A stretch of DNA of 64,000 nucleotides from a virus, in IMG/VR virus record IMGVR_UViG_3300024503_000419; one strand, 5' to 3'. Made by a program: the position numbers and the translations under genes. Under the pieces are notes generated by a model. That model had not been told where the DNA came from, ran no database searches, and was given only the letters and a program-made list of their open reading frames with translations. This document shows positions 44,206 through 63,830 of this stretch, piece by piece (position 1 is the first letter of the stretch; every line of letters starts with the position of its first letter).

Positions 44206-44213
44206 TTTAGAAC

Positions 44214-47013: not shown

Positions 47014-49986
47014 ATGCCTAATTGCTCTCCTTGTGGATGTTATGACAATATAACCCTTACTACCCAAACAGGATTGTCATTCAATGCAAACGACTTTGTG
47101 CAGTTGTATGATGGTGTTAATTCTTACATATGGGGTGAAATTGTTTCATATAATAGTGGAACTGGAGAACTAGTTCTTAAACCTTGTCAATTTTGTGGAG
47201 ACGCAGGTGTTATAACTAATTGGACCATCACGTTATCTGGCATCCCTGGCCCAAGTGGAACTAGTGGAATAGGAATCTTTACTGCTGGTTCTGGTACTTG
47301 TTCTTCTATTAGATGTGGTGTTAATAATACAGCACCAGGTGATTATAGTTTTGCTGGAGGTGGTCAATGTAATACAGCTGGTGGGTGTCACTCATTTGTT
47401 GGTGGTGGATATCTAAATATAATCAGTAATAGTAATGGTACATGTAACTCAGCAATTGTAGGTGGAAAATTTAATATAAATCAAACTAGATTTTCTACTA
47501 TAGCTGGAGGAGAGTGTAATCAAATCTTAACATTATCAGGCTATGAGGGTTGGAGCTTTATTGGTGGAGGATCTTATAATATAATTTGTGGTTCTTCTCA
47601 TACAATTTCTGGAGGTAACTATAATACTATTACTGCTGGAACATATGGAACAGCCCAAGCTCACTTTATTGGTGGAGGTAACTGTAATACTATTAGTAGT
47701 GATTATAATACAAACACTATTTCTGGAGGTTACTATAACACCATAAGCGGCATGTATACCACAAATGCTTTTATTGGTGGAGGAAATACTAATACTGTTT
47801 GTTCACAAAATTCAAGTATTTTATCAGGATTCTGTAATACTATTAGTAGCAACTGTTGGAATCCAAACTCAGCTGGTTCATCTACCATACTATCAGGATA
47901 TAATAATAACATAACATGTAATACACTCTCATCTGCTATTGTTGGCGGAAGATATAATACAATATCAGGAGGATATTCCGCATTTATAGGTGGTGGTGAG
48001 TGTAATATTGCTGGTATTGGTTATTCAACTGTTAGTAGTGGTTATTGCAACGTAGCATATTATGGAGGATTTGTTGGTACAGGAGCGTTTAATACGGCTG
48101 GCGCTGGTGAATCATTTATAGGAGCAGGTATGTATAATACAGCTTGTGGAATACATTCAGCAATAGTAAGTGGACAATATAATACTATATCTTCAAATTA
48201 TTCATTTATTGGTGGAGGAAGGTTTAATGTGAATGGAGGAGACTGTTCATCTATTGCAGGTGGTACTTATAACTATACTTATGGACAAAACTCAACTGTT
48301 GGTGGAGGAGATGGTAACCAAGCGTGTGGATCTTATTCAGCAATTGTTAACGGTTTATTAAATACAGCAAGTGGTTATAACTCAGTAGTATTAGGTGGTA
48401 GGGGTAATACAGCATCTGCTCCATATAGTGCAGTATTTGGCTGCGGATTAACTAACTCTGTAGCTTGTTCATTCAAAGCCAATAGATTAATTGCAGCTAA
48501 CTTAGCAACTGCTGGTTGTGCTGTTTGTACTGATGCAAATGGAATGTTAGTTCCATACACTGCAGGTGGTGGTGGAATTATGGTTGCAGGTGCAGGTTGT
48601 AATTCTACACTTAGATGTGGAGTTAGTAATACTGCATGTGGAGATTATAGCTTTGCAGGTGGTGGACAATGTAATACAAACGGAGGATTAGCTACAAGTA
48701 TAGTAGGAGGTACAAATAACACAGCAGCACAATATGTGTCTTGTACATATAATATAACAAATTCCAATTTATATGGAATGGGCTATTTGCAATTAAATAG
48801 CTCTTACGGAGATGTTACATCAATGTTCCCAAATGGTTCTACAGTAACGATGAACTCAGCCACTTATGGTCTAATGACAGGACAGGTTACTGTGAGTAAC
48901 TACTACGGCTGGATACCTGCCACTGTAATTGCAACGACTTGCTCCTCTTTCTATTGTGATTTTACAACCATCACTGGAAGTATAGGTTCTTCAAACTCAT
49001 TTATAGGAGGTGGACAGTATAATACAGTTTGCTCAAATAATTCAAATATTGTAGGTGGCCGTAGTAATACAATTCATCCAGCTTATTCAGCAATAGTAGG
49101 TGGGTGTAATAATACAGTTTGTTCTAAGCGTTCATTTATAGGTGGAGGAAGTTATAACATAATAGATGGGTATTCAAATACTGCAACTATTGTGGGTGGT
49201 ACTGGTAACTGTATTGCCCCTAATTACAACAACTCATTTAGTGCATATTATACATTTATTGGAGGCGGTACTTCTAACTTTGCTAGTAATCAATACTCAA
49301 CTATTGTTGGTGGATGTGCAAATAGTGCTAGTGGTTACTCATCATTTATTGGTAATGGATACCAGAATGCTGCTCGTGGATACTATTCTGCAGTAGTTGG
49401 AGGTGGTAGTAATATAGTAGACGGTGATGGTTCATTTATTGGAGGTGGTTATTTTAACACGGTTTGTTGTAGCCAATCAGTAATCCTAGGAGGTATGGGT
49501 AATACAGCCTCTGGAAATTATTCAGGAGTATTTGGATGTTGTATTGTTAACAGTATTGCTTGTTCTTTTGCATCAAACCAATTGTGGGCTTGTAATCTTG
49601 TAGGTACAACAGTTGCTTTATGTGTTGGAACAAATGGTGTGATTGTTAGAAATAGCTCTGACATACGTTTAAAAACAAACATCTGTGGTCTTTCTTATGG
49701 ATTATGTGATGTTAAAAAACTGAACCCTGTTAGCTTTGACTGGAATGAAACAGCAAGAGAAACTAGAGGATGTAATAGACAAATTGGCTTCATAGCTCAA
49801 GAGGTTGAACCAATTATACCAGAAGCAGTAGGTAGAAGTGCAGAGAGTGATGAAATGTCTCTAAGTCCAGAGAAAATAATTCCAGTTCTTACTAAAGCAT
49901 TACAAGAATTAAGTGCTAAATTTGATGCTCAAGAACAAAAAATAGCTACCTTAGAGGATATAATCAAAAGAAACAATTTAGTTTAA
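47014..49986 (+). CDS. Beta-helical tail spike/fibre with a C-terminal Peptidase S74 intramolecular chaperone
   Basis: 990 aa; many S(F/A)I(G/V)GGxxN repeats; SDIRLKTNI, LNPVSFDWN, IGFIAQEV and IPVLTKALQEL chaperone motifs. Confidence 0.85.
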   Translation: MPNCSPCGCYDNITLTTQTGLSFNANDFVQLYDGVNSYIWGEIVSYNSGTGELVLKPCQFCGDAGVITNWTITLSGIPGPSGTSGIGIFTAGSGTCSSIRCGVNNTAPGDYSFAGGGQCNTAGGCHSFVGGGYLNIISNSNGTCNSAIVGGKFNINQTRFSTIAGGECNQILTLSGYEGWSFIGGGSYNIICGSSHTISGGNYNTITAGTYGTAQAHFIGGGNCNTISSDYNTNTISGGYYNTISGMYTTNAFIGGGNTNTVCSQNSSILSGFCNTISSNCWNPNSAGSSTILSGYNNNITCNTLSSAIVGGRYNTISGGYSAFIGGGECNIAGIGYSTVSSGYCNVAYYGGFVGTGAFNTAGAGESFIGAGMYNTACGIHSAIVSGQYNTISSNYSFIGGGRFNVNGGDCSSIAGGTYNYTYGQNSTVGGGDGNQACGSYSAIVNGLLNTASGYNSVVLGGRGNTASAPYSAVFGCGLTNSVACSFKANRLIAANLATAGCAVCTDANGMLVPYTAGGGGIMVAGAGCNSTLRCGVSNTACGDYSFAGGGQCNTNGGLATSIVGGTNNTAAQYVSCTYNITNSNLYGMGYLQLNSSYGDVTSMFPNGSTVTMNSATYGLMTGQVTVSNYYGWIPATVIATTCSSFYCDFTTITGSIGSSNSFIGGGQYNTVCSNNSNIVGGRSNTIHPAYSAIVGGCNNTVCSKRSFIGGGSYNIIDGYSNTATIVGGTGNCIAPNYNNSFSAYYTFIGGGTSNFASNQYSTIVGGCANSASGYSSFIGNGYQNAARGYYSAVVGGGSNIVDGDGSFIGGGYFNTVCCSQSVILGGMGNTASGNYSGVFGCCIVNSIACSFASNQLWACNLVGTTVALCVGTNGVIVRNSSDIRLKTNICGLSYGLCDVKKLNPVSFDWNETARETRGCNRQIGFIAQEVEPIIPEAVGRSAESDEMSLSPEKIIPVLTKALQELSAKFDAQEQKIATLEDIIKRNNLV

Positions 49987-50231: not shown

Positions 50232-50262
50232 TTTGTTATTCAAAATAGTTGGTTTACCTTTG
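50232..50262 (+). promoter_or_regulatory. Bacteroidota-type promoter of the GT9/sulfotransferase/PAPS operon
   Basis: TTTG (50232-50235), 19-nt spacer, TACCTTTG (50255-50262): perfect consensus. Confidence 0.85.
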
Positions 50263-50281: not shown

Positions 50282-51148
50282 ATGAATATAATATTCCAAA
50301 TTAATGGCGGTATTGGCAAGGTGATTGCTGGTACCGCCATTTGTGCTTCTATCAAGGCTAAGTATCCTGATAGTAAACTTATTGTTGTCTCTGGTTATCC
50401 AGATGTATTCTTAGGTAATAAGAATGTTGACAGAGCATACGCTTTTGGACAACAGGCTTATTTCTATAAGGAATACATTGAGAATCAAGAGATTATGGTA
50501 TTTGCACACGATCCATACTTGGAAGCAAAGCACATTAAACAAGATGAACACCTTATTGAAACATGGTGTAATTTGTACGGTTTACCAGTAACAAAGACTG
50601 TTGGAGAGCTATTTCTTACACAGAGAGAAATAGATTTCTTTAGCAAAAAATTTGTTTCTGATAAGCCTATTTTTTTGATGCAAACTAATGGTGGTGCTGA
50701 GACAGAACAGAAATACTCTTGGGCTAGAGATATTCCTAGCTATATAGTAGAGAATGTTATACATGAGTTTAGAGAGAAGTATAACATTGTTCATATAAAG
50801 AGAGAAGATCAGATAGGTTACGAAGGAACATTTGCTGTGTCTGATACCTTCAGAGCATTGATTGTTCTTATAAACCTTAGTGAAAAGAGATTGTTAATGG
50901 ATAGCTTTGGACAACATGCAGCTGCAGCTTTGAATAAACCTTCTACAGTGTTGTGGGTTGCTAACAGTCCTAAGGTGTTTGGATATGACTTACATACAAA
51001 CATTGTAGCTAACTCAGGAACAATTAGTCCAGAATTAAGAAATGCCTATCTAAGTAAGTATAATATTGGAGGTGACCCTATTGAGTTTCCTTACAACAAA
51101 GAGTCTGAAATATTTAATGTAGATGCTGTAATTAACTCCTTAAAATAA
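50282..51148 (+). CDS. GT9-like (GT-B fold, heptosyltransferase-related) glycosyltransferase
   Basis: NGGIGKVIAGT N-terminal loop; MDSFGQHAAAALNKPSTVLW corresponds to the GT9 DSG..H.AAAL..P.V.L motif. Confidence 0.7.
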   Translation: MNIIFQINGGIGKVIAGTAICASIKAKYPDSKLIVVSGYPDVFLGNKNVDRAYAFGQQAYFYKEYIENQEIMVFAHDPYLEAKHIKQDEHLIETWCNLYGLPVTKTVGELFLTQREIDFFSKKFVSDKPIFLMQTNGGAETEQKYSWARDIPSYIVENVIHEFREKYNIVHIKREDQIGYEGTFAVSDTFRALIVLINLSEKRLLMDSFGQHAAAALNKPSTVLWVANSPKVFGYDLHTNIVANSGTISPELRNAYLSKYNIGGDPIEFPYNKESEIFNVDAVINSLK

Positions 51149-51154
51149 ACCAAC

Positions 51155-51976
51155 ATGGAAAAGATATTCTATCAAAGCTCATTGCCTAGAGCAGGAAGTA
51201 CATTGTTGCAAAACATACTAGCTCAAAATCCTGATATATACGCTACACCTACAAGTGGTGTGTTAGAACTTATATTTGGTGCACGTGCTAACTATACAAA
51301 CTCAGCAGAGTTTAAAGCTCAAGATCCTGAGTTAATGAAAACAGGATGGCAAGCATTTGCTAAAGCTGGAATGGATGCATTCTACAATGCTGTTACAGAT
51401 AAAAAATATGTGATAGATAAGTCTCGTGGATGGGGTATTCACTATGATTTCTTACAGTTTGTACAAGGTGGTGAACCTAAAATCATTTGCATGGTTAGAG
51501 ACCTACGTGATGTATTTGCTTCTATGGAGAACAACTTCAGAAAGCATCCTGAGAAGCAATCAGACATTTTGGATTGGTCTAAAGGTCAAGGTACTACTGT
51601 ACCAAAGCGTATTGATATCTGGTCACAGAATCCTCCTGTAGGACTAGCTATTGAAAGACTAGCTGAGATATTTAGACTAGGTATTAATACTAAAATATTA
51701 TTCATTAAATTTGAAGACCTATGTCTCTATCCAGAAACAGAGATGACAAGGATATATCAATACCTTGGTATACCACACTACCACCATGATTTTGATAACA
51801 TTGAGCAAATTACTAAGGAGGATGATGAAGTGTATGGAGCATTTGGTGATCATGTCATTAGAACAAAGCTAGAGCCTGTTCCTTCTAGAGCAAAAGCATT
51901 GTTAGGGAAAGATGTAGTTGATTGGATATACAACAACTACAAATGGTTTTATGACTATTTTAGATATTCAAAATGA
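51155..51976 (+). CDS. PAPS-dependent sulfotransferase
   Basis: 5'-PSB loop SLPRAGSTLLQNIL, DKSR, 3'-PB motif MVRDLRDVFAS, IKFEDL. Confidence 0.9.
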   Translation: MEKIFYQSSLPRAGSTLLQNILAQNPDIYATPTSGVLELIFGARANYTNSAEFKAQDPELMKTGWQAFAKAGMDAFYNAVTDKKYVIDKSRGWGIHYDFLQFVQGGEPKIICMVRDLRDVFASMENNFRKHPEKQSDILDWSKGQGTTVPKRIDIWSQNPPVGLAIERLAEIFRLGINTKILFIKFEDLCLYPETEMTRIYQYLGIPHYHHDFDNIEQITKEDDEVYGAFGDHVIRTKLEPVPSRAKALLGKDVVDWIYNNYKWFYDYFRYSK

Positions 51977-52416
51977 TTATAGTGTTATTTGGACAGCCTA
52001 ATTGTGGAAAGTCCACATTGGCTGATGCGCTTATAAAGGAAAGGTTTACTATTGTAAACATTGATGGAGACAAGCTCAGAGAGATATTTGTGAACAAAGA
52101 TTACAGCAGAGAGGGGAGAATCAAGAATCTGAACAGGGCTAGTGATATTGCTACGTTCATGAGCACTATTGGGGATGACATCATCCTATCTCTCGTATAT
52201 CCATATAAGGAAGCTAGAGACTACCTCAACAGCTTGTGTGACTCTGTCTATTGGGTTTATTTGACATATGATGAGCCTAGAGGCAGGGAATCATTTCATG
52301 TAAAGGATTTTGAAGAGCCTGGAGATGATGAACGTGTTCTTCGTCTGAACACTTCTACAACATCCATAGAGGACTGTATAACTAAAATAATGACACATGC
52401 AAAACTTCTTGGCTAG
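51973..52416 (+). CDS. cysC: Adenylyl-sulfate (APS) kinase
   Basis: P-loop GQPNCGKST, IDGDKLRE, DYSREGRIKNL, FEEP motifs of CysC. Confidence 0.8.
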   Translation: MIIVLFGQPNCGKSTLADALIKERFTIVNIDGDKLREIFVNKDYSREGRIKNLNRASDIATFMSTIGDDIILSLVYPYKEARDYLNSLCDSVYWVYLTYDEPRGRESFHVKDFEEPGDDERVLRLNTSTTSIEDCITKIMTHAKLLG

Positions 52417-52795
52417 ATCAGCAGGACCCACTTCTTCCAATGACAAGAAATATTCTATGTTTATAGGAAGATGGCAACCCTGGCACGCTGGACACAGATG
52501 GTTAATTGACCAGAGACTCAATGAAGGAAAGAATGTCCTCCTCTGTATAAGAGATGTAGAACCAGATGAGAAGAATCCTTGGACCGCACATCAAGTGATG
52601 TTAAACTTATTCGATGAACTTAAAGACTTGGTTGAATCAGGAAGAGTTAGGGTTATTACTATACCTGATATTGAATCTATTAATATTGGTAGGGGTGTTG
52701 GTTATGATGTCATAGAACACGTACCCCCTCAGGAGATACATGACATATCTGCTACAAAAATCCGTGAGCAAATGAAAGTAGAAGGTAAGCTATGA
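52397..52795 (+). CDS. HxGH-family nucleotidyltransferase, candidate minimal ATP sulfurylase
   Basis: FIGRWQPWHAGH and ISATKIRE motifs; lies between the APS kinase and a DUF2061-like gene. Confidence 0.65.
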   Translation: MQNFLARSAGPTSSNDKKYSMFIGRWQPWHAGHRWLIDQRLNEGKNVLLCIRDVEPDEKNPWTAHQVMLNLFDELKDLVESGRVRVITIPDIESINIGRGVGYDVIEHVPPQEIHDISATKIREQMKVEGKL

Positions 52796-53004
52796 CTGTA
52801 AGCAAGAAAAGACATATAGCCAAAACAATCAGCTACAGGATTGTCAGCACACTCATTGGGTTTGGTATTATGTGGCTAGTGACAGGAAGTGTGAAAATAG
52901 GAGCTGCATTTGGTGTAGCTGAGCTAGTGTACAAGCCTATACAATATTACCTACATGAGCGTATTTGGTATAAATGGATTAGATATGGACTGAAGAAAGA
53001 CTAA
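52792..53004 (+). CDS. DUF2061-like small membrane protein
   Basis: AKTISYRIVST...YYLHERIW signature; this family is often found beside sulfate-activation genes. Confidence 0.75.
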   Translation: MTVSKKRHIAKTISYRIVSTLIGFGIMWLVTGSVKIGAAFGVAELVYKPIQYYLHERIWYKWIRYGLKKD

Positions 53005-53794
53005 GCATTGCTTTGTATTCTTCTAGCCCTTTCTCCAAATTGTATTTAGCTTCCCAACCAGGCATAAACAAATCAGCCTTGGTAAACATCTGATAGTTGT
53101 CAGGCATTTCAAACTTGAACTTGTATTTGAATGGTATATCCATTATCTCTAGAACATTCTCAAACGTTCTGGGCTCTCCTGTTCCTACATCAAACCATCC
53201 TCCTTTGAATTCATTGTAATGCTGCCAGGCATACAAATTTGCATCTACAACATCCTTTATATACACAAAGTCTCTCACAGGTTGTCCTGGAAAGAGCATC
53301 ACTTCTTCTCCAAGCTGATGTTTCTTATAAGATTGATGAGCAATAGAAGCCATGTTTCCTTTGTGCATTTCTCCTGGTCCATACACATTGAAATAACGTA
53401 GGGCCACTCCCTTGCTCTTTATTACAAACTCCTCTCCCAGAAACTTACTCCATGCATAGAGTGTTTCAGGACTTCCCTTTGTTCCATATATAGCAGCTGA
53501 TGAACTATATATAATGGGAATGCCTCTGTGCTGACACCAGCTAGCAATGATGTTAGTGGAATGTACATTGAGCATAAGCATCTCATTGATGTCCTTGTTC
53601 TGTGTATCTGAACAAGCACCTACATGAAACACCACTTCTGGGTTCATGTCTACAAGATATTCTATAAGTCTATCCTGCCATCTGGCTCTATCAAATATCC
53701 ATTTCTCAAGACCCTTTACAGTGTGCCCCTGTCTTTCAAGTTCTGTCTGTAAAGCTTTGCCAATAAATCCGTTGTTACCTGTTACGCAGACCAT
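52979..53794 (-). CDS. hldD: ADP-L-glycero-D-manno-heptose 6-epimerase
   Basis: VTGNNGFIG, FHVGACSDT, YSSSAAIYG, YAWSK, LRYFNVYGPGEMHKGNMAS, RDFVY and YQMFTKAD closely parallel HldD/RfaD; start placed at the ATG at 53794. Confidence 0.88.
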   Translation of the reverse strand: MVCVTGNNGFIGKALQTELERQGHTVKGLEKWIFDRARWQDRLIEYLVDMNPEVVFHVGACSDTQNKDINEMLMLNVHSTNIIASWCQHRGIPIIYSSSAAIYGTKGSPETLYAWSKFLGEEFVIKSKGVALRYFNVYGPGEMHKGNMASIAHQSYKKHQLGEEVMLFPGQPVRDFVYIKDVVDANLYAWQHYNEFKGGWFDVGTGEPRTFENVLEIMDIPFKYKFKFEMPDNYQMFTKADLFMPGWEAKYNLEKGLEEYKAMLSLSSVHI

Positions 53795-54435
53795 ATGTGT
53801 ATTATTATTTCTGTATAATATGCTAGGAATTCTTCTGACCAAACTCCTGCTGTGATGTCCACACCATCCAAGGAATACACCTTGAAATTTACATCATGTA
53901 AATATTCATCTCTAAACTTCTTGAATTTTTGTTTCAGAAGAAGATTGCTCAAATGCCATTCTCCAGCTATCTTCTTCATATTGCTCAGTATCCATGGTTT
54001 GTTTTCTAGGGTGAATATGTCATACTCCCCACCCTCACAATCCATCTTAAGGAAGTCTATCCTACCAATATTGTAATCTTCAATCACCTGCTTAAAGGTG
54101 GTGCAATACGTAGATTCCCCCTGATCATCAAAGACAAACTCACCATCAAACTTACCTACATGTCCTGATATAGCTTTGTTGATACATGTAACAGGAGCGT
54201 GTCTTGTATTATACACCAGTGTCTTAAACTCTGAATAACTAGGCTCAAAACAGAACACGTGCTTTGGATGCTTATCTAGGATGGAATAGGTGAATATACC
54301 TATACTTGCTCCAATATCAAACACCACATCACCCTCTTCTACGGTGAAGCATTTCTCATATATCCTATCTACAAATGTTTCTCTCTTTACTGTCTCTATA
54401 AATATGGCGTCTGATGTTCCCCAATTAAATTCCAT
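53782..54435 (-). CDS. FkbM-family SAM-dependent methyltransferase
   Basis: VVFDIGASIGIF, VFCFEP, IDFLKMDCEGGEYDIF. Confidence 0.88.
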   Translation of the reverse strand: MEFNWGTSDAIFIETVKRETFVDRIYEKCFTVEEGDVVFDIGASIGIFTYSILDKHPKHVFCFEPSYSEFKTLVYNTRHAPVTCINKAISGHVGKFDGEFVFDDQGESTYCTTFKQVIEDYNIGRIDFLKMDCEGGEYDIFTLENKPWILSNMKKIAGEWHLSNLLLKQKFKKFRDEYLHDVNFKVYSLDGVDITAGVWSEEFLAYYTEIIIHIWSA

Positions 54436-57400
54436 GATTGTATTTTTTTAATTACGTCTTCAGATTTAATAGATGTCTGACATTCCCATTGTCTGTCTGT
54501 TCCTTTATGCACAGGACACCAGTTCCAATCTCCTGCATCAAATCTGTATTCAGCTTTGTTCCAGCATCCATGACATACATTCTCATTAGTAATTCTAATA
54601 CAGCTAAACTCATGGTCAGCAGCTGTAAAGTTACTAATCATTACCACTTGTTTATTCAGAGCCCAAGCTAACCAGCTTAGCCCACTGGATAGTCCTATAA
54701 AGAACTCACTGTGATGGATAACATTCATGGTGTTCTCCATAGATGTATCTTCAAGCTGTTCACAATTGTCAAAAGGATTCTTCTCCTTGGACACATTAAC
54801 TATCTTATATCCATTCTCATGTAAGAAGTTGATGGTGAGCTGCCAGTCTTCCTTCTGCCAAAACTTACATCCAGCCGTTGAATTAGTGGCTATTGTAACA
54901 TATCTACCATATGAATTGTTACCAGGTGTAAAGGCTAAACGTGGTCTAATCTCTTGAAAATCAAGACCTAAGATGTTGGTTGCTGTCTGTTGGAGGGGAA
55001 TAGTATTACACAAAGCTGGCTCCTTATTACCATCATAGAACCAACCCACACTGTACATACCAAGGATGTTACCTACACCTGTTCCTGGTTCTACAAACTC
55101 AAGCTCTGGATAGACACTCTCAAATAGGAAGTTCTTAAATGTGCTCACTGTTACATGGCAATTGTGCTTCCTCTTGAACTCAAGTACATATGGCATCCAT
55201 GCAATTGTGTCTCCTAGTGATTTGCTATCCATAGCTATATAGACACGCTGGCCCTCATAATTGAGTGTATACTCATAGTATATACTTTCATCCTTCCACA
55301 CCTTGATGGTCCATTTGGTAAACCATCTCCTGTTGAGCTTCACCCAGTGATTCACCTTTATCTTGTTCTCATAGTGACACACACCCTGCTCATCATAAAA
55401 TCTGACAGTGAAGGTGCTTTTGGAATTACCTGTTATCTCTAGGAATGGCTCGTGTATAAATGTGTGGGTGATATTAATCAGTTCTTTGTCAGGCTGTATG
55501 GGTCTATTCATCACCTCCTGATACAGATCAATATGCTTCTGTGCGAAATCAAGCTTCTGTCCTTCAGGAATATCGTAGCTCACATCTGTATCTAACAGCT
55601 GGGTGAGCTGTTCTTTCATCTTTTCAGGCTTCAGATCTGTAATATACTGAGTGAACATGTCTCCATACTGAGGAAGATTTCTTGCCAGGATTGGCAGTCC
55701 ATATCCTATAGCTTCTCTAATCACCAGTGGATTGCATTCAAATGTACTGTTAAACAGGAACACATCTGCAGCTGCCATAAACCTACCCACATCATCACGC
55801 TCTCCCCATACATGTACATTAGGTGGTATGTCCTTCATAATGGGTTCCCAGTAGTGCTGGAAGTTACCAGCCTGATTACCTACAAAGTGGAATTGTACAT
55901 CTGGCATTTGTCTAGCCAGCTCTACAGCTTCTCCTTGGTTCTTACCAGCAGTCCATAGTCCTACATTAAGCACATGTTTACCAGGTCCTAGATCTATGGG
56001 CTCAGATTCTTTCTTCACGATAGGAAACTCAATCACCTCCTTTCTAGAAGGCATATTAGCAAACGTCTTTAGATGGTGTGGTGTACAGAACGCATATGCA
56101 TCTGGATGATAGCGCTTCTCTAAGTCTGGCTTGAACACAATGTTGTGACATGTTTCAATCATCCTCCAGGTTCTATTTGGACTGTACAGCGCTTGTCTCA
56201 CCTCTTCTGGCCAGTTGTTCCAGCCATCTTCCACCATCTCATCCACATGCACTATATCTACAGCATGTCTTTTGATGATATCAATCACCTCCATCTTATT
56301 CTCTCCCAAGGTGTAGAAGTGGTGGGCTATTTCCTTTATCTGATTCTTCTGGACAACAAAGTGATCACTGTGGTTGGAATACTCCACAACAATAATCTTA
56401 GATTTGGAATAGGCCAACAGATCTGCTATTCTCTCTAAAAGGAAGGCAGGCATTCCACCTGTCGATAGATGTGGTGCCAGGAATAATATCTTAAGCTGAT
56501 TCTTCTGGCGCTCTAACATTCTGTACATAGTGACAGCATCCTTTTCTCCGTGATAGAATAGTAACTGGTCTACATCTGCAGGCACAGCTACAAAATGTGC
56601 TAGGTGCTGCTTCTTAGTTCTGAATGTGACATTATTCACTGTGTTCAAGGATCCATTCATGTATATGTATGGTAGTCCATCTAATGCCTTGTACTTCCAC
56701 AGAAGCACGTTAGCTATAGTTTCCTCATGATAGGGAGCATAGTATTGTGGATTCTGTAACACCTTGGGATGGTTACACATCCACCACCAACTGTCAAGGA
56801 ATTCTTGACAGTATTCACCAGCTACAAAATATCCTGTTTGTCTGTATTTATCTCTGATGTATTGATCTACACCAAACAGCTCACAAGCTGGATGTTCAAG
56901 AGTAGTGGATAGGTCATCTCTACTATCAGCCCCACCTCTTCCATTGCTGATCATCCATTCATATATTCCCTCTGTAAAATACGGATAGGCACTCTTCACT
57001 GGGAAATAGTCAAATATTCTGTCTACATACTTGGTAGCCACACTATCACTATCCACATAGGCCACTGTTTTAGCATGCTTTAACGCTTCTTTAACAATTA
57101 GTGGGCGCTGGATGAGGATGTTGTAAATGTCTGGATTAGCTCTGTCTATATACTTCTGCTGAGGAAGATCCTTGGTTTTACAATCCCAACGGAATGTAGC
57201 AGCTCCCTTTATATCCACATCTGAGTTGAGCATATAAACCATAACAGGTAGACTGCTAAAGGTTCTAAGAGAATCTACGCACGCCTGCACAGTGTCCTTA
57301 TAGCTCTCTGTAGCATATAAGACATATGCTTTTTCCCATCTAATGTCCTGATTTACATAGTATCCATACCACTGGTTGTCATATAGCTTCTCCAGTCCTG

Positions 57401-57848
57401 GGTAACGCTCTAGCATCACCTCTGGTGTTAGATCTGCCTGGTGGTGGGTTTCATACTCATTTCCATACTCTGCTCCATCCTGAGCCATCATATAGGGCAC
57501 AGCTACAAGAAACCTCTTGTCCATCAGGTCAAAGTCTGTAAGCAGGTTTTTAGCTGTGCCTGAGGGTAGGTGTTCTAGAATATCCCCTAAGATGATAAAG
57601 TCATAGGGTCTAACATCAAAGGTGACAATATCCCCTACATAAACATTATCATATTTAGCTCTCAGATTGAACTGATCTACATATGGAGCCCATATCTCTA
57701 CAGCATCCATCCTATATCCTAAATTCCTTAGCAAATCAGAATATGTTCCCTGTCCAGGACCTACATCTAGAATGCGTGTTGATAGGGGAATATTGTCTAT
57801 AAACCACTGCTTTATTTCAGGCTTGAAGTAGGTGTAACTGTTTGGCAT
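54396..57848 (-). CDS. Four-domain enzyme: class I methyltransferase, GT-A glycosyltransferase, GT4 glycosyltransferase and Aah/TibC-type protein O-heptosyltransferase
   Basis: ILDVGPGQG/GDILEH; AYVDSD (DxD); FLAPHLSTGGMP...ECNPLVIREA; SLGDTIAWMPY...FIGLSSGLSWLAWA...CHGCW...WCPVHKGTDRQWEC. Start placed at the ATG at 57848, downstream of the promoter. Confidence 0.85.
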   Translation of the reverse strand: MPNSYTYFKPEIKQWFIDNIPLSTRILDVGPGQGTYSDLLRNLGYRMDAVEIWAPYVDQFNLRAKYDNVYVGDIVTFDVRPYDFIILGDILEHLPSGTAKNLLTDFDLMDKRFLVAVPYMMAQDGAEYGNEYETHHQADLTPEVMLERYPGLEKLYDNQWYGYYVNQDIRWEKAYVLYATESYKDTVQACVDSLRTFSSLPVMVYMLNSDVDIKGAATFRWDCKTKDLPQQKYIDRANPDIYNILIQRPLIVKEALKHAKTVAYVDSDSVATKYVDRIFDYFPVKSAYPYFTEGIYEWMISNGRGGADSRDDLSTTLEHPACELFGVDQYIRDKYRQTGYFVAGEYCQEFLDSWWWMCNHPKVLQNPQYYAPYHEETIANVLLWKYKALDGLPYIYMNGSLNTVNNVTFRTKKQHLAHFVAVPADVDQLLFYHGEKDAVTMYRMLERQKNQLKILFLAPHLSTGGMPAFLLERIADLLAYSKSKIIVVEYSNHSDHFVVQKNQIKEIAHHFYTLGENKMEVIDIIKRHAVDIVHVDEMVEDGWNNWPEEVRQALYSPNRTWRMIETCHNIVFKPDLEKRYHPDAYAFCTPHHLKTFANMPSRKEVIEFPIVKKESEPIDLGPGKHVLNVGLWTAGKNQGEAVELARQMPDVQFHFVGNQAGNFQHYWEPIMKDIPPNVHVWGERDDVGRFMAAADVFLFNSTFECNPLVIREAIGYGLPILARNLPQYGDMFTQYITDLKPEKMKEQLTQLLDTDVSYDIPEGQKLDFAQKHIDLYQEVMNRPIQPDKELINITHTFIHEPFLEITGNSKSTFTVRFYDEQGVCHYENKIKVNHWVKLNRRWFTKWTIKVWKDESIYYEYTLNYEGQRVYIAMDSKSLGDTIAWMPYVLEFKRKHNCHVTVSTFKNFLFESVYPELEFVEPGTGVGNILGMYSVGWFYDGNKEPALCNTIPLQQTATNILGLDFQEIRPRLAFTPGNNSYGRYVTIATNSTAGCKFWQKEDWQLTINFLHENGYKIVNVSKEKNPFDNCEQLEDTSMENTMNVIHHSEFFIGLSSGLSWLAWALNKQVVMISNFTAADHEFSCIRITNENVCHGCWNKAEYRFDAGDWNWCPVHKGTDRQWECQTSIKSEDVIKKIQSWNLIGEHQTPYL

Positions 57849-57868
57849 AACTGATTGGCTTTCTGTTA

Positions 57869-57900
57869 CAAAGATAGAAAAAAGATTTGGTAGTTTCAAA
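57869..57900 (-). promoter_or_regulatory. Bacteroidota-type promoter driving the glycosyltransferase-FkbM-hldD operon
   Basis: Minus strand: TTTG (57900-57897), 20-nt spacer, TATCTTTG (57876-57869): perfect consensus. Confidence 0.85.
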
Positions 57901-57917
57901 TAAATTACATAGATTTG
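57886..57917 (+). promoter_or_regulatory. Bacteroidota-type promoter driving cupin-hldC-hldA
   Basis: TTTG (57886-57889), 20-nt spacer, TAGATTTG (57910-57917): perfect consensus; overlaps the divergent promoter. Confidence 0.85.
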
Positions 57918-57953
57918 CCCCACAAGTGGAGTGTATCCACTTTATGCTATATT

Positions 57954-58301
57954 ATGCACGAACTACATAAAGTTGAGAAGGGTTGGGGTCACGAACTCTG
58001 GATCCATAACTCCCCAGAATACTGCGGAAAACTGCTGGTTTTCAAGGCTGGCAAGAAGTTCTCAATGCACTTCCACAAGATAAAGCAGGAGAGCTGGTAT
58101 GTAAGCAAAGGGTCCTTCCAATATACATGGGTGGACATGTCTACAGGCACCCTCTATACAGACTATCTGAAGGAAGGAGATGCTCTAACCATTATGCCCT
58201 ACCACCCTCACCAGCTGGAAGCTCTAGAAGATGGCATCATATTTGAGGTGAGTACACAACACTTTGATGAAGATAGCTACAGACTATGGAAGGGGGACTA
58301 A
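57954..58301 (+). CDS. Cupin-fold sugar(-phosphate) isomerase-like protein
   Basis: VEKGWGHE, SMHFHKIKQESW, PYHPHQL and FEVST cupin metal motifs; start placed at the ATG at 57954. Confidence 0.8.
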   Translation: MHELHKVEKGWGHELWIHNSPEYCGKLLVFKAGKKFSMHFHKIKQESWYVSKGSFQYTWVDMSTGTLYTDYLKEGDALTIMPYHPHQLEALEDGIIFEVSTQHFDEDSYRLWKGD

Positions 58302-58696
58302 GGGTATGGGTGAATGGAGCATTTGATGTCCTGCATATAGGGCATATTCAACTCCTTAAAAGAGCTAAAGAGTTTGGTAGTGTGAGAGTGGGTGTTGATA
58401 GTGACGCACGTGTTGCAGAATTAAAAGGTGATAGTAGACCATTTAACAAGCTGTCTGACAGAATAGATTTCCTGAAGAGCATTAGGTATGTGGATGAGAT
58501 AGTATCATATGATTCTGAGGAAGAGCTCACCAACCAAATCAAACTTTATGAACCAGACATCATGGTGATAGGATCTGACTACATGGGAAAAAGAATAGTG
58601 GGGGCTGAATATATAACACAGATAGTATTCTTTGACAGAATAGAACATAAATCAACTACATCAATATTAGGGTATGAAGCTGGTGGTAATAGGTGA
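58286..58696 (+). CDS. hldC: D-glycero-beta-D-manno-heptose 1-phosphate adenylyltransferase (RfaE/HldE domain II)
   Basis: NGAFDVLHIGH, GVDSDARV..LKGDSRPFN, GSDY. Confidence 0.82.
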   Translation: MEGGLRVWVNGAFDVLHIGHIQLLKRAKEFGSVRVGVDSDARVAELKGDSRPFNKLSDRIDFLKSIRYVDEIVSYDSEEELTNQIKLYEPDIMVIGSDYMGKRIVGAEYITQIVFFDRIEHKSTTSILGYEAGGNR

Positions 58697-59414
58697 TGTC
58701 TGCAAGGATGTCTTCATCTATGGAGACTGTAAACGCTTAAGTCCAGAAGCACCTGTACCTGTATTTAATCCAGTGGAAACAATAGAGAACTCAGGAATGG
58801 CTGGTAACGTGGTAGCCAATCTAAGTGCTATCAACCCCAACCTGCAGATAAATTTCCATCACAACTTTGAGAACATTACCAAAACCAGGTATGTAGATAA
58901 GAAGACCAATCACCTTTTCCTAAGAGTGGACGATGAGCCAAAGGTGAATAGAATATTCCTCACAGCTCAGCTTATTGAGGATGTAGAAACTGCAGATGCT
59001 GTGATTGTGAGTGACTATGACAAGGGATATCTAACAGAAGATGACCTGCAATATATAGCTGTTAAAGCTAAGTGGTCCATCTTAGACAGCAAGAAGCATT
59101 TAAAACCACACACCATATCAAACTATTCATTCATCAAACTGAATGAATCTGAATACAATAAAAACAAACAGTCTCTAATTTACATGAGAGACAAAGTGAT
59201 AGTGACACTTAGTTCCAAAGGAGCAATGCATAAAGATGTTACATACAGCTCCCCAAGTCCAAAAGAAACTATAGATGTAAGTGGTGCAGGAGATACGTTC
59301 GTTGCAGCATTTACAATTAAATACTTGGAAACCAAAGACATATCTACGTCTATTGAATATGCCAATCTTATGTCATCTATTGTGGTGGGTAAGAGAGGTG
59401 TTGTAACCCCATAA
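58674..59414 (+). CDS. hldA: D-glycero-D-manno-heptose 7-phosphate kinase (RfaE/HldE domain I, PfkB family)
   Basis: IGDVCKDVFIYG..KRLSPEAPVPV, GMAGNV..NL, VSDYDKG, DVSGAGDTF. Confidence 0.88.
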   Translation: MKLVVIGDVCKDVFIYGDCKRLSPEAPVPVFNPVETIENSGMAGNVVANLSAINPNLQINFHHNFENITKTRYVDKKTNHLFLRVDDEPKVNRIFLTAQLIEDVETADAVIVSDYDKGYLTEDDLQYIAVKAKWSILDSKKHLKPHTISNYSFIKLNESEYNKNKQSLIYMRDKVIVTLSSKGAMHKDVTYSSPSPKETIDVSGAGDTFVAAFTIKYLETKDISTSIEYANLMSSIVVGKRGVVTP

Positions 59415-60596: not shown

Positions 60597-60725
60597 ATGG
60601 AAAAATTGATTGAGCTCTTAAAGAGTCTGTTCAGCAAGGGTGGCCTTGTTGAGAAGGTTAAAACCATCAAACAATTAGACAAAGAAGTTAAGAAAATAAT
60701 CCCTGCTAAAAAAAAGAAGAAATGA
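60597..60725 (+). CDS. Small basic protein, 42 aa (not in the ORF track)
   Basis: MEKLIELLKSLFSKGGLVEKVKTIKQLDKEVKKIIPAKKKKK*; ATGA overlap with the endolysin. Confidence 0.55.
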   Translation: MEKLIELLKSLFSKGGLVEKVKTIKQLDKEVKKIIPAKKKKK

Positions 60726-63031: not shown

Positions 63032-63679
63032 ATGGCCATACCATCCCGTCAGATAGGCTGGGGCACACAGGACAACCTGCTGTGGCAGATTGCAAAGCAA
63101 CTGGAGGGAGCCTCTTGTCAGCTCTGTACGTTGAATGATAACATAGCCACTATTACAGGCACCTCTGGTACAAGTGGGACTAGTGGTGTTAGCGGATCTA
63201 ATGGTACATCAGGTACCAGTGGGCTTTCTAGTTTTAAATACGGATCTTTCTATAGCACTGTGGATCAATCACTTGCAAAGGATGCTATAGGACCTTTTAC
63301 ATTTAACAACACAGACCTAAGTAATGGTGTTAGTGTGGTTTCTAGTTCAAGAATTACACTGGCTAACGCTGGTAAATACAACATCCAGTTTAGTGCACAG
63401 TTTCATCACATAGGTGGTGGAGGATCTGGGGAAACAGTGAACATATGGCTTGCTAAAAACGGCTCAGATATAGCTGACTCAAACACAAGACTCACTATCA
63501 CCTCTAGTACTAAGTATAGTGTGGCAGCCTGGAACTTCTTTGTAGATGCTTCAGGAGGAGACTATTATGAAATCATCTGGTCTACAGATAATGCCAATAT
63601 AAAAATAGAACATGAGGCTGCTGGTGTGCATCCTGCTATACCATCAATAATTTTAACAGTCAATCAAATAGGAATATAA
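63032..63679 (+). CDS. Short fibre/decoration protein: anchor module, GTS linker, C1q/BclA-CTD-like head
   Basis: GTSGTSGTSGVSGSNGTSGTSG linker; YGSFY...ITLANAGKYNIQFSAQF...GDYYEIIWS jelly-roll pattern. Confidence 0.7.
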   Translation: MAIPSRQIGWGTQDNLLWQIAKQLEGASCQLCTLNDNIATITGTSGTSGTSGVSGSNGTSGTSGLSSFKYGSFYSTVDQSLAKDAIGPFTFNNTDLSNGVSVVSSSRITLANAGKYNIQFSAQFHHIGGGGSGETVNIWLAKNGSDIADSNTRLTITSSTKYSVAAWNFFVDASGGDYYEIIWSTDNANIKIEHEAAGVHPAIPSIILTVNQIGI

Positions 63680-63680
63680 C

Positions 63681-63830
63681 ATGGCAATACCATCAAGGGG
63701 CATAGGTTGGGGTACAACGGAGAACTTGTTGTGGCAAATTAGCAAACAGCTGGAAGGAATATCTTGCCAGCTTTGTGATTTGAATAACAATTTCACTACC
63801 ACCACAACCACCACCACATCACCAGTGTAA
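63681..63830 (+). CDS. 49-aa paralogue of the preceding anchor module with a poly-Thr tail (not in the ORF track)
   Basis: MAIPSRGIGWGTTENLLWQISKQLEGISCQLCDLNNNFTTTTTTTTSPV*. Confidence 0.8.
   Translation: MAIPSRGIGWGTTENLLWQISKQLEGISCQLCDLNNNFTTTTTTTTSPV

What the first reader, a model, noticed from the sequence alone, without database searches (positions are those of the whole stretch)
54396..57848. Assembly-line polyprotein: methyltransferase, GT-A, GT4 and heptosyltransferase in one chain
Four catalytic domains are fused in one ~1150-aa ORF: class I MTase (about 57848-57360), GT-A with DxD (about 57340-56520), GT4 (about 56495-55500) and TibC-like (about 55480-54396). Read from C- to N-terminus, the order suggests priming, extension, extension and methyl capping of a short oligosaccharide on a protein. 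If the TibC domain oligomerises, the other domains would form a multi-enzyme ring. This reading is inference.
Basis: partly seen in the sequence, partly recalled or inferred. Interest (0 to 1): 0.75.

Follow-up and report, generated by a model that had tools for sequence, protein, structure and literature searches.

The report
Four-enzyme sugar-coating protein of a phage
An abundant uncultured marine crAss-like phage encodes one 1150-residue protein joining a methyltransferase, two sugar-adding enzymes and a relative of the bacterial enzyme that puts heptose on adhesin proteins. It most likely builds a short methylated sugar chain on the phage's own serine/threonine-rich tail fibres, but no experiment has tested this.

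Summary
ORF 54396-57848 (-) encodes a soluble 1150-aa protein with four folded catalytic domains at almost exactly the stated borders:
- class I SAM methyltransferase, aa 1-166
- retaining GT-A of a rare GT8-like family, aa 171-448
- GT4, aa 453-781
- TibC/Aah-type O-heptosyltransferase, aa 791-1150

All catalytic motifs are invariant in 26 homologues of 57-89% identity.

- It is a fusion enzyme. Nothing indicates a cleaved polyprotein.
- GT4-TibC is the constant core in near-identical phages (capsid protein 95-99% identical). The N-terminal modules are gained, lost, swapped or encoded as separate genes. This fits "prime, then decorate", but distant relatives shuffle the domain order.
- The iron-finger cysteines are kept. 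The beta-hairpin thumb that builds the TibC dodecamer is about 10 residues shorter, so a multi-enzyme ring is unsupported.
- The adenine-contacting Arg of TibC is replaced by Thr.

The gene sits beside ADP-heptose synthesis genes, sulfation genes and fibre genes, including a fibre with 148 G-[ST]-[ST] triplets. Its own virion is therefore the likeliest target.

This scan noted the same architecture earlier on other DNA (e1-5355819, e1-5351795, e1-3279559). I class it as a new variant of known kinds.

The parts
54396..57848 (-). Whole gene: 1150-aa four-domain glycan-building fusion enzyme (ATG start at 57848; stop at 54396-54398)
   Evidence: ORF list, translation, homologue lengths and shared start, promoter position
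57351..57848 (-). Domain 1, aa 1-166: class I SAM-dependent methyltransferase. Motif I is D28-V-G-P-G-Q-G34.
   Evidence: PF13489 and PF08241 above cut-off. Seven-strand Rossmann pattern in the model. Motif residues invariant. Nearest cultured-phage homologue, Phrappuccino gp145, directly follows three glycosyltransferase genes.
56505..57338 (-). Domain 2, aa 171-448: GT-A fold glycosyltransferase of a rare GT8-like (retaining-type) family. DxD is D266-S-D268; it also has an H433-G-E-K436 motif.
   Evidence: No Pfam or NCBIfam hit. Model pLDDT 92. LgtC Z 15.8, with WbbM, glycogenin, UGGT and GT6 enzymes following. Only 180 representatives among 1.8 billion proteins. Motifs invariant.
55506..56492 (-). 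Domain 3, aa 453-781: GT4 (GT-B fold) glycosyltransferase. It has a GGMP loop and the EX7E motif E704...E712.
   Evidence: PF13692 42.6 bits and PF00534 36.4 bits. Best solved sequence relative is RfaG/WaaG, E 1.3e-5. Structural hits include BshA, WaaG, PglA and MshA. Motifs invariant.
54396..55478 (-). Domain 4, aa 791-1150: TibC/Aah-type (BAHT) O-heptosyltransferase, made of an N-terminal beta-barrel (aa 791-861), a GT-B core and an iron finger. Catalytic Asp is D880.
   Evidence: TIGR04414 259.7 bits, cut-off 200. PDB 4rap E 2e-63. TM 0.83. Residue mapping onto TibC.
54480..54575 (-). Iron-finger motif: C1092, C1095, C1111 and C1123, aligned with TibC Cys339/342/358/370
   Evidence: HMMER alignment to 4rap_A. 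The role of these Cys in TibC is from PMC4358343. All four are invariant in 26 homologues.
57869..57900 (-). Bacteroidota-type promoter (TTTG-N20-TAnnTTTG) 21 nt upstream of the ATG. It overlaps a divergent copy at 57886-57917 (+) in front of the cupin gene.
   Evidence: Pattern found 6 times in the window against 1.43 expected; 0 of 100 shuffles reach 6. Sequence read directly.
53782..54435 (-). Downstream gene overlapping the fusion's 3' end by 40 nt: FkbM-family methyltransferase (217 aa)
   Evidence: PF05050, TIGR01444 61 bits, phrog_8156
52979..53842 (-). HldD-like NAD-dependent epimerase, last gene of the minus-strand unit
   Evidence: Best NCBIfam hit is TIGR02197 ADP-glyceromanno-heptose 6-epimerase, 179 bits, below the 274.6 cut-off. 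PF01370.
57954..59414 (+). Divergent operon: cupin, HldC-like adenylyltransferase (58286-58696) and HldA-like PfkB kinase (58674-59414). These are candidate ADP-heptose supply genes.
   Evidence: rfaE_dom_II 99 bits and rfaE_dom_I 125 bits are the best hits, both below cut-off. Pfam.
50282..52795 (+). Neighbouring operon: unknown 288-aa protein, carbohydrate-type sulfotransferase, APS-kinase-like protein and small nucleotidyltransferase. This is a candidate glycan-sulfation module.
   Evidence: Pfam. NoeE-like and APS kinase hits. Promoter at 50232-50262. Conserved next to the fusion in most relatives.
44214..46931 (+). Candidate acceptor 1: 905-aa collagen-like fibre with 148 G-[ST]-[ST] triplets and 46% Ser+Thr
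   Evidence: Translation, PF01391 209 bits, triplet count
47014..49986 (+). Candidate acceptor 2: 990-aa Ser/Cys-rich beta-roll fibre with a C-terminal S74 intramolecular chaperone
   Evidence: Translation, PF13884 and beta-roll hit, tail-fibre PHROGs
63032..63679 (+). Candidate acceptor 3: 215-aa protein with a short GTS stalk and a head domain
   Evidence: Translation. A homologue lies near the fusion in nearly all related loci.

Best explanation
The gene encodes a soluble, cytoplasmic multidomain enzyme that builds a short O-linked oligosaccharide on protein. The target is most likely the phage's own Ser/Thr-rich fibres, before or during virion assembly.

Proposed steps, all inferred rather than shown:
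1. The C-terminal TibC/Aah-like domain transfers heptose from ADP-heptose to Ser hydroxyls. The donor would come from the neighbouring HldA/HldC/HldD-like genes or from the host.
2. The GT4 domain adds the next sugar. This domain is always fused or adjacent to the TibC-like domain in related phages.
3. The GT8-like retaining GT-A domain adds a further alpha-linked hexose.
4. The N-terminal class I methyltransferase O-methylates the chain. The FkbM methyltransferase and the sulfotransferase operon next door would add further decoration.

The outer modules (GT-A, methyltransferase, pyruvyl transferase, GT25) vary among phages whose capsid protein is 95-99% identical. The locus therefore behaves as a hypervariable glycan-diversifying island.

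The protein is a fusion, not a cleaved polyprotein. A TibC-style dodecameric ring is not supported.
For: Shown here:
- Four domains are assigned by HMM and fold.
- Every catalytic motif is invariant in 26 homologues of 57-89% identity, and conservation is even across domains at 65-70%.
- TibC catalytic base D110 = D880. Phosphate binders T226/K230 = T991/K995. W305 = W1059. All four Fe-binding Cys are conserved. The stereoselectivity position P300 is Ser, as in Aah, which accepts both heptose epimers; this fits the adjacent HldD-like epimerase.
- There is no membrane segment.
- The gene has its own Bacteroidota-type promoter, divergent from the promoter of the heptose-gene operon.
- The best family hits of the neighbours are the three ADP-heptose pathway enzymes and a carbohydrate sulfotransferase.
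- The locus lies 4.4 kb from two fibre genes. One has 148 G-[ST]-[ST] triplets; the other is a Ser-rich beta-roll. TibC and Aah modify Ser on beta-helical passengers.
- The architecture is kept in more than 100 metagenomic proteins and 16 viral contigs, always as one frame.
- Module behaviour: GT4-TibC alone in G002; an unfused four-gene operon (FkbM, 887-aa GT4 protein, GT4, TibC) in G001; a pyruvyl transferase inserted at a domain junction; GT25 swapped in.
- The methyltransferase's nearest cultured-phage homologue follows three glycosyltransferase genes.
- The GT9-GT4-GT8 content mirrors the LPS core order WaaC/F, WaaG, WaaO/I. RfaG is the best solved GT4 sequence hit, and WaaI/WaaO are among the GT-A structural hits. 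This last point is suggestive only.
Against: - No biochemical or proteomic datum exists. The acceptor, donor sugars and order of action are all inferred.
- TibC Arg286, which contacts adenine N1 and is needed for activity, is Thr1040 in 25 of 26 homologues. The nucleotide moiety of the donor may therefore differ.
- The heptose-pathway genes are absent near the fusion in at least five related loci (L003, L007, L008, L010, L014). ADP-heptose supply is therefore not a constant of the system.
- TibC and Aah modify Ser in beta-helices. Nothing shows that a collagen-like GTS helix is an acceptor.
- G-T-[ST] repeats and a TibC-like domain are both present in all near-complete relatives examined, so co-occurrence could not discriminate.
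- Distant proteins carrying the same GT-A module have other domain orders, so order need not encode the reaction sequence.
- The similarity of the GT4 and GT-A domains to the LPS enzymes is generic for their families.
Confidence: 0.6

Rival explanations
1. The chemistry is the same, but the target is the host. The enzyme would remodel host envelope glycans (an LPS-core-like structure) or host surface proteins during infection, for example to block superinfection or adsorption of progeny to lysed cells.
For: The domain content GT9 + GT4 + GT8-like equals that of LPS core assembly. Solved relatives include WaaG, WaaO/WaaI and LgtC. Host-type promoters drive the cassette.
Against: The C-terminal domain passes the protein-specific TIGR04414 equivalog cut-off and keeps the TibC beta-barrel and iron finger, not the plain WaaC/WaaF layout. 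The protein has no membrane segment. No lipid-carrier, flippase or ligase gene was seen among the neighbours examined. The locus sits among fibre and lysis genes of a crAss-like phage.
Confidence: 0.12
2. One reading: the TibC-like domain assembles a dodecameric ring like TibC. The fusion would then form a 48-active-site multi-enzyme ring that processes fibres threaded through it.
For: The four iron-finger Cys that mediate back-to-back dimers in TibC are invariant, and F368 is kept as Phe or Trp. The overall fold is TM 0.83 to the TibC protomer.
Against: In TibC, F265D and V266D thumb mutants are dimers and inactive. The phage domain lacks the Phe-Val tip in the alignment and the region is coil in the model. 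About 790 extra N-terminal residues per protomer would have to be accommodated. Stand-alone and two-domain versions exist in close relatives, so no particular super-assembly is required.
Confidence: 0.12
3. The four domains are fused by chance or for co-expression and act on unrelated substrates. For example, the methyltransferase could act on nucleic acid or protein and a glycosyltransferase on DNA.
For: The substrates of domains 1-3 are not defined by any family-specific model. Phage glycosyltransferases that modify DNA are known (review text in PMC12619734).
Against: The same modules recur together, in fused and unfused forms, with FkbM methyltransferases, pyruvyl transferase, GT25 and GT32. 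All of these are carbohydrate-acting families. The methyltransferase homologue in a mycobacteriophage follows three glycosyltransferase genes. The neighbours make nucleotide-sugar and sulfate donors. The very short linkers and even conservation argue for one functional unit.
Confidence: 0.08

Closest known systems
TibC and Aah of E. coli (bacterial autotransporter heptosyltransferases, BAHT; TIGR04414; PDB 4rap/4rb4; PMC4358343)
   Same: The C-terminal 360 residues are homologous (259.7 bits, 29% identity, TM 0.83). They share the N-terminal beta-barrel, the GT-B core, catalytic Asp, Thr/Lys phosphate binders, the Trp and the four-Cys iron finger. The gene is linked to repetitive Ser-rich fibrous proteins.
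   Different: It is fused behind three other enzymes, whereas BAHTs are stand-alone proteins of about 400 aa. It is phage-encoded. The thumb hairpin is about 10 residues shorter. The adenine-contacting Arg286 is Thr. The acceptors would be phage fibres, not autotransporter passengers.
Chlorovirus PBCV-1 A064R (GT-GT-methyltransferase) and A111/114R (three GT domains) (PMC7826918)
   Same: Each is a virus-encoded single chain joining several glycosyltransferase domains. A064R also has a methyltransferase that caps the terminal sugar, and it acts on a virion protein in the cytoplasm. The A064R GT-A domain (2p6w) is a structural neighbour of domain 2 (Z 13.4).
   Different: These are viruses of eukaryotic algae making an N-linked glycan on the capsid protein. 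They have no priming enzyme, no GT9/BAHT domain and no GT4 domain. Their methyltransferase is C-terminal (order N to C equals reaction order), whereas here it is N-terminal. The similarity is at fold level only.
Mycobacteriophage virion glycosylation cassettes (Freeman et al. 2023, as cited in PMC12619734; Phrappuccino gp142-145)
   Same: Phage-encoded glycosyltransferases plus a class I methyltransferase. The Phrappuccino methyltransferase is 34% identical to domain 1 and sits directly after three GT genes. Glycans on capsid and tail-tube subunits are reported for mycobacteriophages.
   Different: They are separate small genes with no heptosyltransferase. The hosts are actinobacterial, and the acceptors are C-termini of capsid and tail-tube proteins rather than fibres.
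LPS inner/outer core pathway WaaC/WaaF (GT9), WaaG (GT4), WaaO/WaaI (GT8)
   Same: The same three glycosyltransferase families appear in the same chemical logic: heptose first, then alpha-hexoses. RfaG is the best solved sequence relative of domain 3, and WaaI/WaaO are among the structural relatives of domain 2.
   Different: Those are separate membrane-associated enzymes acting on lipid A-Kdo. Here they form one soluble chain whose GT9 domain is of the protein-modifying TibC type.
Related phage fusions: Microcystis phage Mel-JY01 1226-aa protein (PP395634, annotated 'methyltransferase FkbM'); UniProt A0A7S9XE01 (Virus NIOZ-UU157, 985 aa, 56% identical); A0A6J5SVC1 ('Glycosyltransferase Aah/TibC', uncultured phage)
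   Same: Multidomain phage proteins ending in a TibC-like domain. A0A7S9XE01 is a member of the same family.
   Different: Mel-JY01 has GT4 at the N-terminus and an unassigned middle part, and it belongs to an unrelated cyanophage. None has been studied. Database names are automatic.

Membership tests
BAHT (TibC/Aah O-heptosyltransferases, TIGR04414) | Score above the curated equivalog cut-off | tested here: met
   259.7 bits against cut-off 200, aa 810-1137 covering profile positions 26-372 of 374
BAHT (TibC/Aah O-heptosyltransferases, TIGR04414) | Protomer fold: N-terminal beta-barrel plus GT-B catalytic core | tested here: met
   Foldseek to 4rap: TM 0.83 by target, rmsd 3.1 A over 367 columns. 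Beta strands at aa 791-861 precede the Rossmann-like core.
BAHT (TibC/Aah O-heptosyltransferases, TIGR04414) | Catalytic base Asp110 and sugar-phosphate binders Thr226, Lys230, Trp305 | tested here: met
   These map to D880, T991, K995 and W1059, all invariant in 26 homologues
BAHT (TibC/Aah O-heptosyltransferases, TIGR04414) | Arg286 contacting adenine N1 (basis of ADP specificity; R286A impairs TibC) | tested here: not met
   The aligned residue is Thr1040: Thr in 25 of 26 homologues, Val in 1
BAHT (TibC/Aah O-heptosyltransferases, TIGR04414) | Four-Cys iron finger (Cys339/342/358/370) | tested here: met
   C1092, C1095, C1111 and C1123 are invariant. Iron binding itself is not testable here.
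BAHT (TibC/Aah O-heptosyltransferases, TIGR04414) | Beta-hairpin thumb with a hydrophobic tip (Phe265-Val266) that joins dimers into the dodecamer | tested here: not met
   The alignment shows 5+1+4 residues missing around the thumb, and the tip aligns to a gap/Pro1025. The model has coil between strands 1015-1018 and 1029-1031. An invariant Phe1026 remains, so a different contact is not excluded. I therefore file the domain as a divergent, thumb-less phage subgroup of the BAHT homology family, not as an orthologue of TibC/Aah.
BAHT (TibC/Aah O-heptosyltransferases, TIGR04414) | Transfers heptose from ADP-heptose to Ser of a repetitive beta-helical protein encoded nearby | not testable with these tools
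   Context only: HldA/HldC/HldD-like neighbours and Ser-rich fibres within 4.4-10 kb
GT8 (CAZy) / Pfam PF01501, retaining GT-A | Match to the family HMM | tested here: not met
   No Pfam or NCBIfam hit on aa 171-448 at E up to 1. No PDB sequence hit with the profile. By sequence the domain forms its own small family of 180 representatives.
GT8 (CAZy) / Pfam PF01501, retaining GT-A | GT-A fold closest to retaining GT8/GT6/GT24 enzymes, with DxD | tested here: met
   LgtC Z 15.8 (221 aligned, rmsd 3.7), glycogenin Z 14.8, UGGT 14.3, BoGT6a 15.5. D266-x-D268 is invariant.
GT8 (CAZy) / Pfam PF01501, retaining GT-A | C-terminal His of the HxxGxxKPW-type motif completing the metal site | tested here: inconclusive
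   H433-G-E-K436 is invariant and resembles the motif. Its equivalence to LgtC His244 was not checked residue by residue.
GT4 (Pfam PF00534/PF13692) | HMM match above cut-off, GT-B fold, EX7E motif | tested here: met
   42.6 and 36.4 bits against cut-offs 27 and 26.4. Structural hits BshA, WaaG, PglA and MshA at TM by target 0.5-0.66. E704 and E712 invariant.
Class I SAM-dependent methyltransferase | HMM match above cut-off, GxGxG motif I, seven-strand Rossmann fold | tested here: met
   PF13489 29.7 bits against 27 and PF08241 27.4 bits against 21.2. D28, G30, G32 and G34 invariant. Strand order in the model. Sugar O-methylation as the reaction is inferred from context only.
Viral multidomain glycan-building enzymes (PBCV-1 A064R type) | Several glycosyltransferase domains plus a methyltransferase in one virus-encoded chain acting on one glycan | tested here: inconclusive
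   The architecture criterion is met. Action on one glycan is untested. There is no sequence homology beyond fold level (2p6w Z 13.4).

The most novel reading that the evidence does not exclude
This would be the first virus-encoded protein O-heptosylation system. A single polypeptide would prime Ser residues of the phage's own collagen-like (Gly-Thr-Ser)n and beta-roll fibres with heptose, then elaborate a methylated glycan, with sulfation by the neighbouring genes. Its swappable outer modules would diversify the virion's sugar coat among marine crAss-like phages that are otherwise almost identical (capsid protein 95-99% identical, this enzyme 55-89%). That would amount to glycan-level variation of the fibres in one of the ocean's abundant phage groups.
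Probability: 0.4. Interest if true: 0.8.

Novelty: new variant of a known kind. Interest (0 to 1): 0.6.

Why it matters
Protein O-heptosylation is known only from BAHT enzymes of Gram-negative pathogens. Virion glycosylation by phage-encoded enzymes is documented essentially only for mycobacteriophages. Multidomain glycan-building enzymes in viruses are known from chloroviruses. This gene joins all three themes in an abundant, uncultured marine phage lineage with more than 594 capsid-matching contigs.

If the reading holds:
- Marine phages coat their fibres with a heptose-primed, methylated and perhaps sulfated glycan. This would bear on adsorption, stickiness to marine gels, resistance to proteases and grazers, and host range.
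- The modular gain and loss of domains at exact junctions offers a natural series for learning how glycan-building enzymes are combined.
- A related fusion in the cultured Microcystis phage Mel-JY01 makes the idea directly testable.

Tried and rejected
- Dimer prediction for the TibC-like domain (two copies of aa 781-1150): score 0.00, no verdict, no controls run. It says nothing either way.
- Megablast of 20 kb of the window against GenBank phages: no match. tblastn with the capsid protein found only Leptolyngbya phage Lbo-JY46 at 26% identity. There is no cultured close relative.
- No whole genome is held for the window.
- Literature searches for phage or viral TibC/BAHT/O-heptosyltransferase found nothing relevant. 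The Freeman et al. 2023 paper is not held and is cited only through PMC12619734.
- Co-occurrence test of G-T-[ST] repeat fibres with the TibC-like domain in five capsid-matched records: all five have the repeats and all three near-complete ones have the domain, so there was no contrast to exploit.
- Sigma-70-type promoter scan: 15 sites against 17.2 expected, uninformative. The Bacteroidota-type pattern was informative instead.
- Pfam PF21129 (TibC N-terminal domain) does not hit this protein, although it hits the Mel-JY01 protein weakly. The beta-barrel is supported by the NCBIfam alignment and the fold instead.
- 'Polyprotein' in the sense of a cleaved precursor: considered and rejected for lack of any protease or cleavage signal, and because the linkers are short.
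- GTG start at 57923: rejected.

Full report
OBSERVATION

The window has one long minus-strand ORF at 54396..57923, counted from a GTG. It sits among plus-strand genes. The biological start is the ATG at 57848, giving 1150 aa. All full-length homologues begin with the same Met-Pro and are 1138-1150 aa long. A Bacteroidota-type promoter (TTTG, 20 nt, TATCTTTG) lies at 57869-57900 on the minus strand, 21 nt before that ATG and inside the GTG extension. That pattern occurs 6 times in the window against 1.43 expected, and no shuffle reached 6. Two other copies stand in front of the cupin gene (57886-57917, +) and of ORF 50282 (50232-50262, +).

DOMAIN ASSIGNMENT

Pfam finds a class I methyltransferase (aa 20-103), a GT4 C-terminal half (aa 626-754) and a GT9 stretch (aa 982-1080). 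NCBIfam places aa 810-1137 in TIGR04414, the Aah/TibC O-heptosyltransferase equivalog, at 259.7 bits against a cut-off of 200. A profile of 26 homologues matches TibC (PDB 4rap) at E 2e-63.

Residues 171-448 match no sequence family. Folded alone with 26 homologues, this region gives a confident model (pLDDT 92) with a GT-A fold. The best matches are retaining enzymes:
- LgtC, Z 15.8
- the WbbM C-terminal domain, Z 15.6
- BoGT6a, Z 15.5
- glycogenin, Z 14.8
- UGGT, Z 14.3
- GlyE, LARGE1 and the PBCV-1 A64R domain, Z 13.4 to 13.7

Foldseek agrees at E about 1e-7, with galactinol synthases, WaaI and WaaO also listed.

The full-length model (pLDDT 85.3, pTM 0.47) gives these borders: methyltransferase 1-166, GT-A 171-448, GT4 453-781, TibC-like 791-1150 (beta-barrel 791-861). 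Linkers are 4-10 residues. The low pTM means the mutual arrangement of the domains is not predicted. The protein has no membrane-like segment.

CATALYTIC RESIDUES

All of the following are invariant in 26 homologues of 57-89% identity:
- Methyltransferase motif I: D28, G30, G32, G34.
- GT-A: D266-x-D268 and H433-G-x-K436.
- GT4: G464-G465, K636, E704...E712 (EX7E).

Mapping onto TibC, using the HMMER alignment and the residue roles given in PMC4358343:
- Catalytic base D110 = D880.
- T226 and K230 = T991 and K995.
- W305 = W1059.
- Fe ligands C339/342/358/370 = C1092/1095/1111/1123.
- The stereoselectivity position P300 is Ser1054, as in Aah, which accepts both ADP-D,D- and ADP-L,D-heptose.

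There are two departures from TibC:
- R286 makes the adenine N1 contact, and R286A impairs TibC. Here it is Thr1040.
- The beta-hairpin thumb is about 10 residues shorter. In this protein the tip is not conserved and the region is modelled as coil.

Conservation is even across domains (65-70% mean identity), so all four are under constraint.

WHO CARRIES IT

The 1926-aa ORF at 12074-17854 matches the crAss-virus muzzle protein. The capsid protein has more than 594 matches of 95-99% identity in IMG/VR. There is no cultured relative. The promoters are of Bacteroidota type. This is therefore an abundant uncultured marine crAss-like phage, probably of a Bacteroidota host (host inferred).

On the same contigs where the capsid protein is 98% identical, the fusion enzyme is only 70-75% identical. 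The locus is hypervariable relative to the virion core.

CONTEXT

On the same strand, the fusion is followed by an FkbM methyltransferase (overlapping it by 40 nt) and by an epimerase whose best match is ADP-heptose 6-epimerase.

Divergently transcribed are a cupin, an HldC-like adenylyltransferase and an HldA-like kinase. Their best hits are rfaE domains II and I, all below the curated cut-offs.

On the other side lies an operon with a carbohydrate-type sulfotransferase (NoeE-like), an APS-kinase-like protein and a small nucleotidyltransferase.

Beyond that are two fibre genes:
- a 905-aa collagen-like protein with 148 G-[ST]-[ST] triplets and 46% Ser+Thr
- a 990-aa Ser/Cys-rich beta-roll fibre with an S74 chaperone

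A smaller GTS-stalk protein is at 63032.

In 16 related viral loci the four-domain gene is always one frame. It is nearly always the only gene on its strand, or is accompanied only by FkbM. The sulfation genes are usually present. The heptose genes are present in five loci and absent near the gene in at least five others.

MODULARITY

- Insertion: P0011 and similar proteins carry a pyruvyl transferase inserted exactly between GT-A and GT4.
- Swap: P0114 replaces the methyltransferase with a second GT-A copy plus GT25.
- Loss: shorter forms lack the methyltransferase.
- Among records with the same capsid protein, one has the full fusion and one has only GT4-TibC (726 aa).
- A third such record has four separate, overlapping genes in the same slot and order: FkbM methyltransferase, an 887-aa GT4-containing protein, a 337-aa GT4 and a 358-aa TibC-like protein.
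- Stand-alone TibC-like proteins of about 370 aa occur on large contigs.
- The GT-A module is rare (180 representatives among 1.8 billion proteins). It occurs in many multidomain proteins with GT9, FkbM, GT32, GT4 and GT25 in differing orders.
- A cultured cyanophage, Microcystis phage Mel-JY01, has a 1226-aa GT4-...-TibC fusion annotated only as 'methyltransferase FkbM'.
- BFVD holds a 56% identical 985-aa relative (Virus NIOZ-UU157) and an uncultured-phage protein named 'Glycosyltransferase Aah/TibC'.

INTERPRETATION

The best-supported reading is a soluble glycan-building fusion enzyme that O-glycosylates protein, most likely the phage's own fibres.

Steps that are shown:
- four intact catalytic domains of the named folds
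- homology of the last domain to a family whose characterised members heptosylate Ser on repetitive beta-helical proteins
- linkage to nucleotide-heptose-type, methylation, sulfation and fibre genes
- a constant GT4-TibC core with variable outer modules

Steps that are inferred:
- heptose as the first sugar
- Ser of the fibres as the acceptor
- GT4 acting second, GT-A third and methylation last

The inferred order gains some support from three points. The GT4-TibC pair is never separated. Variation is concentrated in the N-terminal modules, as expected for the outer, variable residues of a glycan. The GT9/GT4/GT8 triad parallels LPS core assembly. The shuffled orders in distant proteins show that domain order is not a reliable code. 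In the one characterised viral precedent, PBCV-1 A064R, the methyltransferase is C-terminal (PMC7826918).

The ring hypothesis is not supported, because the thumb is truncated. The retained iron finger leaves dimerisation possible. The dimer prediction gave no verdict and is not used.

The word 'polyprotein' should be dropped.

KNOWN AND NEW

Each domain family is known. So are multidomain viral glycan enzymes (chloroviruses) and phage-encoded virion glycosylation (mycobacteriophages; PMC12619734 citing Freeman et al. 2023).

What is not described in the literature I could search:
- a BAHT-type protein heptosyltransferase in a virus
- its fusion to three further carbohydrate-acting domains
- the module-swapping series in an abundant marine phage group

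Automatic annotations ('autotransporter strand-loop-strand O-heptosyltransferase', 'Glycosyltransferase Aah/TibC') already label such proteins in JGI and UniProt. The sequence family is therefore recorded, but not interpreted.

This scan has itself noted the same four-domain architecture, and the two-domain GT4-GT9 form, on other DNA (e1-5355819, e1-5351795, e1-3279559, e1-5374848).

I class it as a new variant of known kinds, with interest 0.6. It is solid as an observation and attractive as a testable hypothesis, but the functional core is inference.

Noticed in passing
window 12074-17854 (+): The 1926-aa ORF matches the Crassvirus muzzle protein (PF25731, 113.5 bits). This identifies the window as a crAss-like phage. 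The giant ORFs 26689-38730 (4013 aa) and 38730-43742 (1670 aa) have no Pfam hit.
   Followed up: partly
window 1409-2962 (+) versus 54396-57848 (-): The capsid protein is 95-99% identical in more than 594 IMG/VR contigs. On the same contigs the fusion enzyme is only 55-89% identical. The glycosylation/fibre region is thus a hypervariable island in an otherwise very uniform, abundant phage population.
   Followed up: partly
window 50232-50262 (+), 57869-57900 (-), 57886-57917 (+): Bacteroidota-type promoters (TTTG-N19-21-TAnnTTTG) occur 6 times against 1.43 expected. Three sit exactly in front of the three transcription units of the glycan cassette, and two of them form an overlapping divergent pair. 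This suggests a Bacteroidota host and host-polymerase transcription.
   Followed up: partly
L102:6456-12006 (-) (IMG/VR record with the same capsid protein): Unfused version of the locus: an FkbM methyltransferase, an 887-aa protein (GT4 at the N-terminus plus about 600 unassigned residues), a 337-aa GT4 and a 358-aa TibC-like protein. They are overlapping genes in the same order as the fused domains.
   Followed up: partly
L104:4750-8430 (+) (Microcystis phage Mel-JY01, PP395634): A cultured cyanophage carries a 1226-aa GT4-unassigned-TibC fusion annotated only as 'methyltransferase FkbM'. It lies next to a structural protein gene and near a 639-aa cytidylyltransferase-like protein. This could serve as an experimental model.
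   Followed up: partly
window 44001-46000: A local G+C peak (0.473 against about 0.39-0.41 elsewhere) coincides with the Gly-Thr-Ser repeat fibre gene. Long antisense ORFs there (44522-45619 and 45626-46732) are probably artefacts of the repeat.
   Followed up: no
window about 63690-63830 (+): Just after ORF 63032-63679 there is a roughly 49-aa ORF. Its N-terminus resembles that of the preceding protein and it ends in a run of eight Thr.
   Followed up: no
window 57954-58301 (+): A small cupin heads the HldC/HldA-like operon. No SIS-type GmhA or HAD-type GmhB was seen among the neighbours examined. The first two steps and the phosphatase step of ADP-heptose synthesis are therefore unaccounted for, unless they are supplied by the host or by non-orthologous enzymes.
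   Followed up: no
window 8634-9884 (+): A DNA repair exonuclease (SbcD/Mre11-like, phrog_704, E 6e-47) sits between tail-like genes and the muzzle gene.
   Followed up: no
window 60722-61321 (+): The probable endolysin has a GH19 chitinase-like domain (PF00182). It is conserved next to the glycan cassette in most related loci.
   Followed up: no
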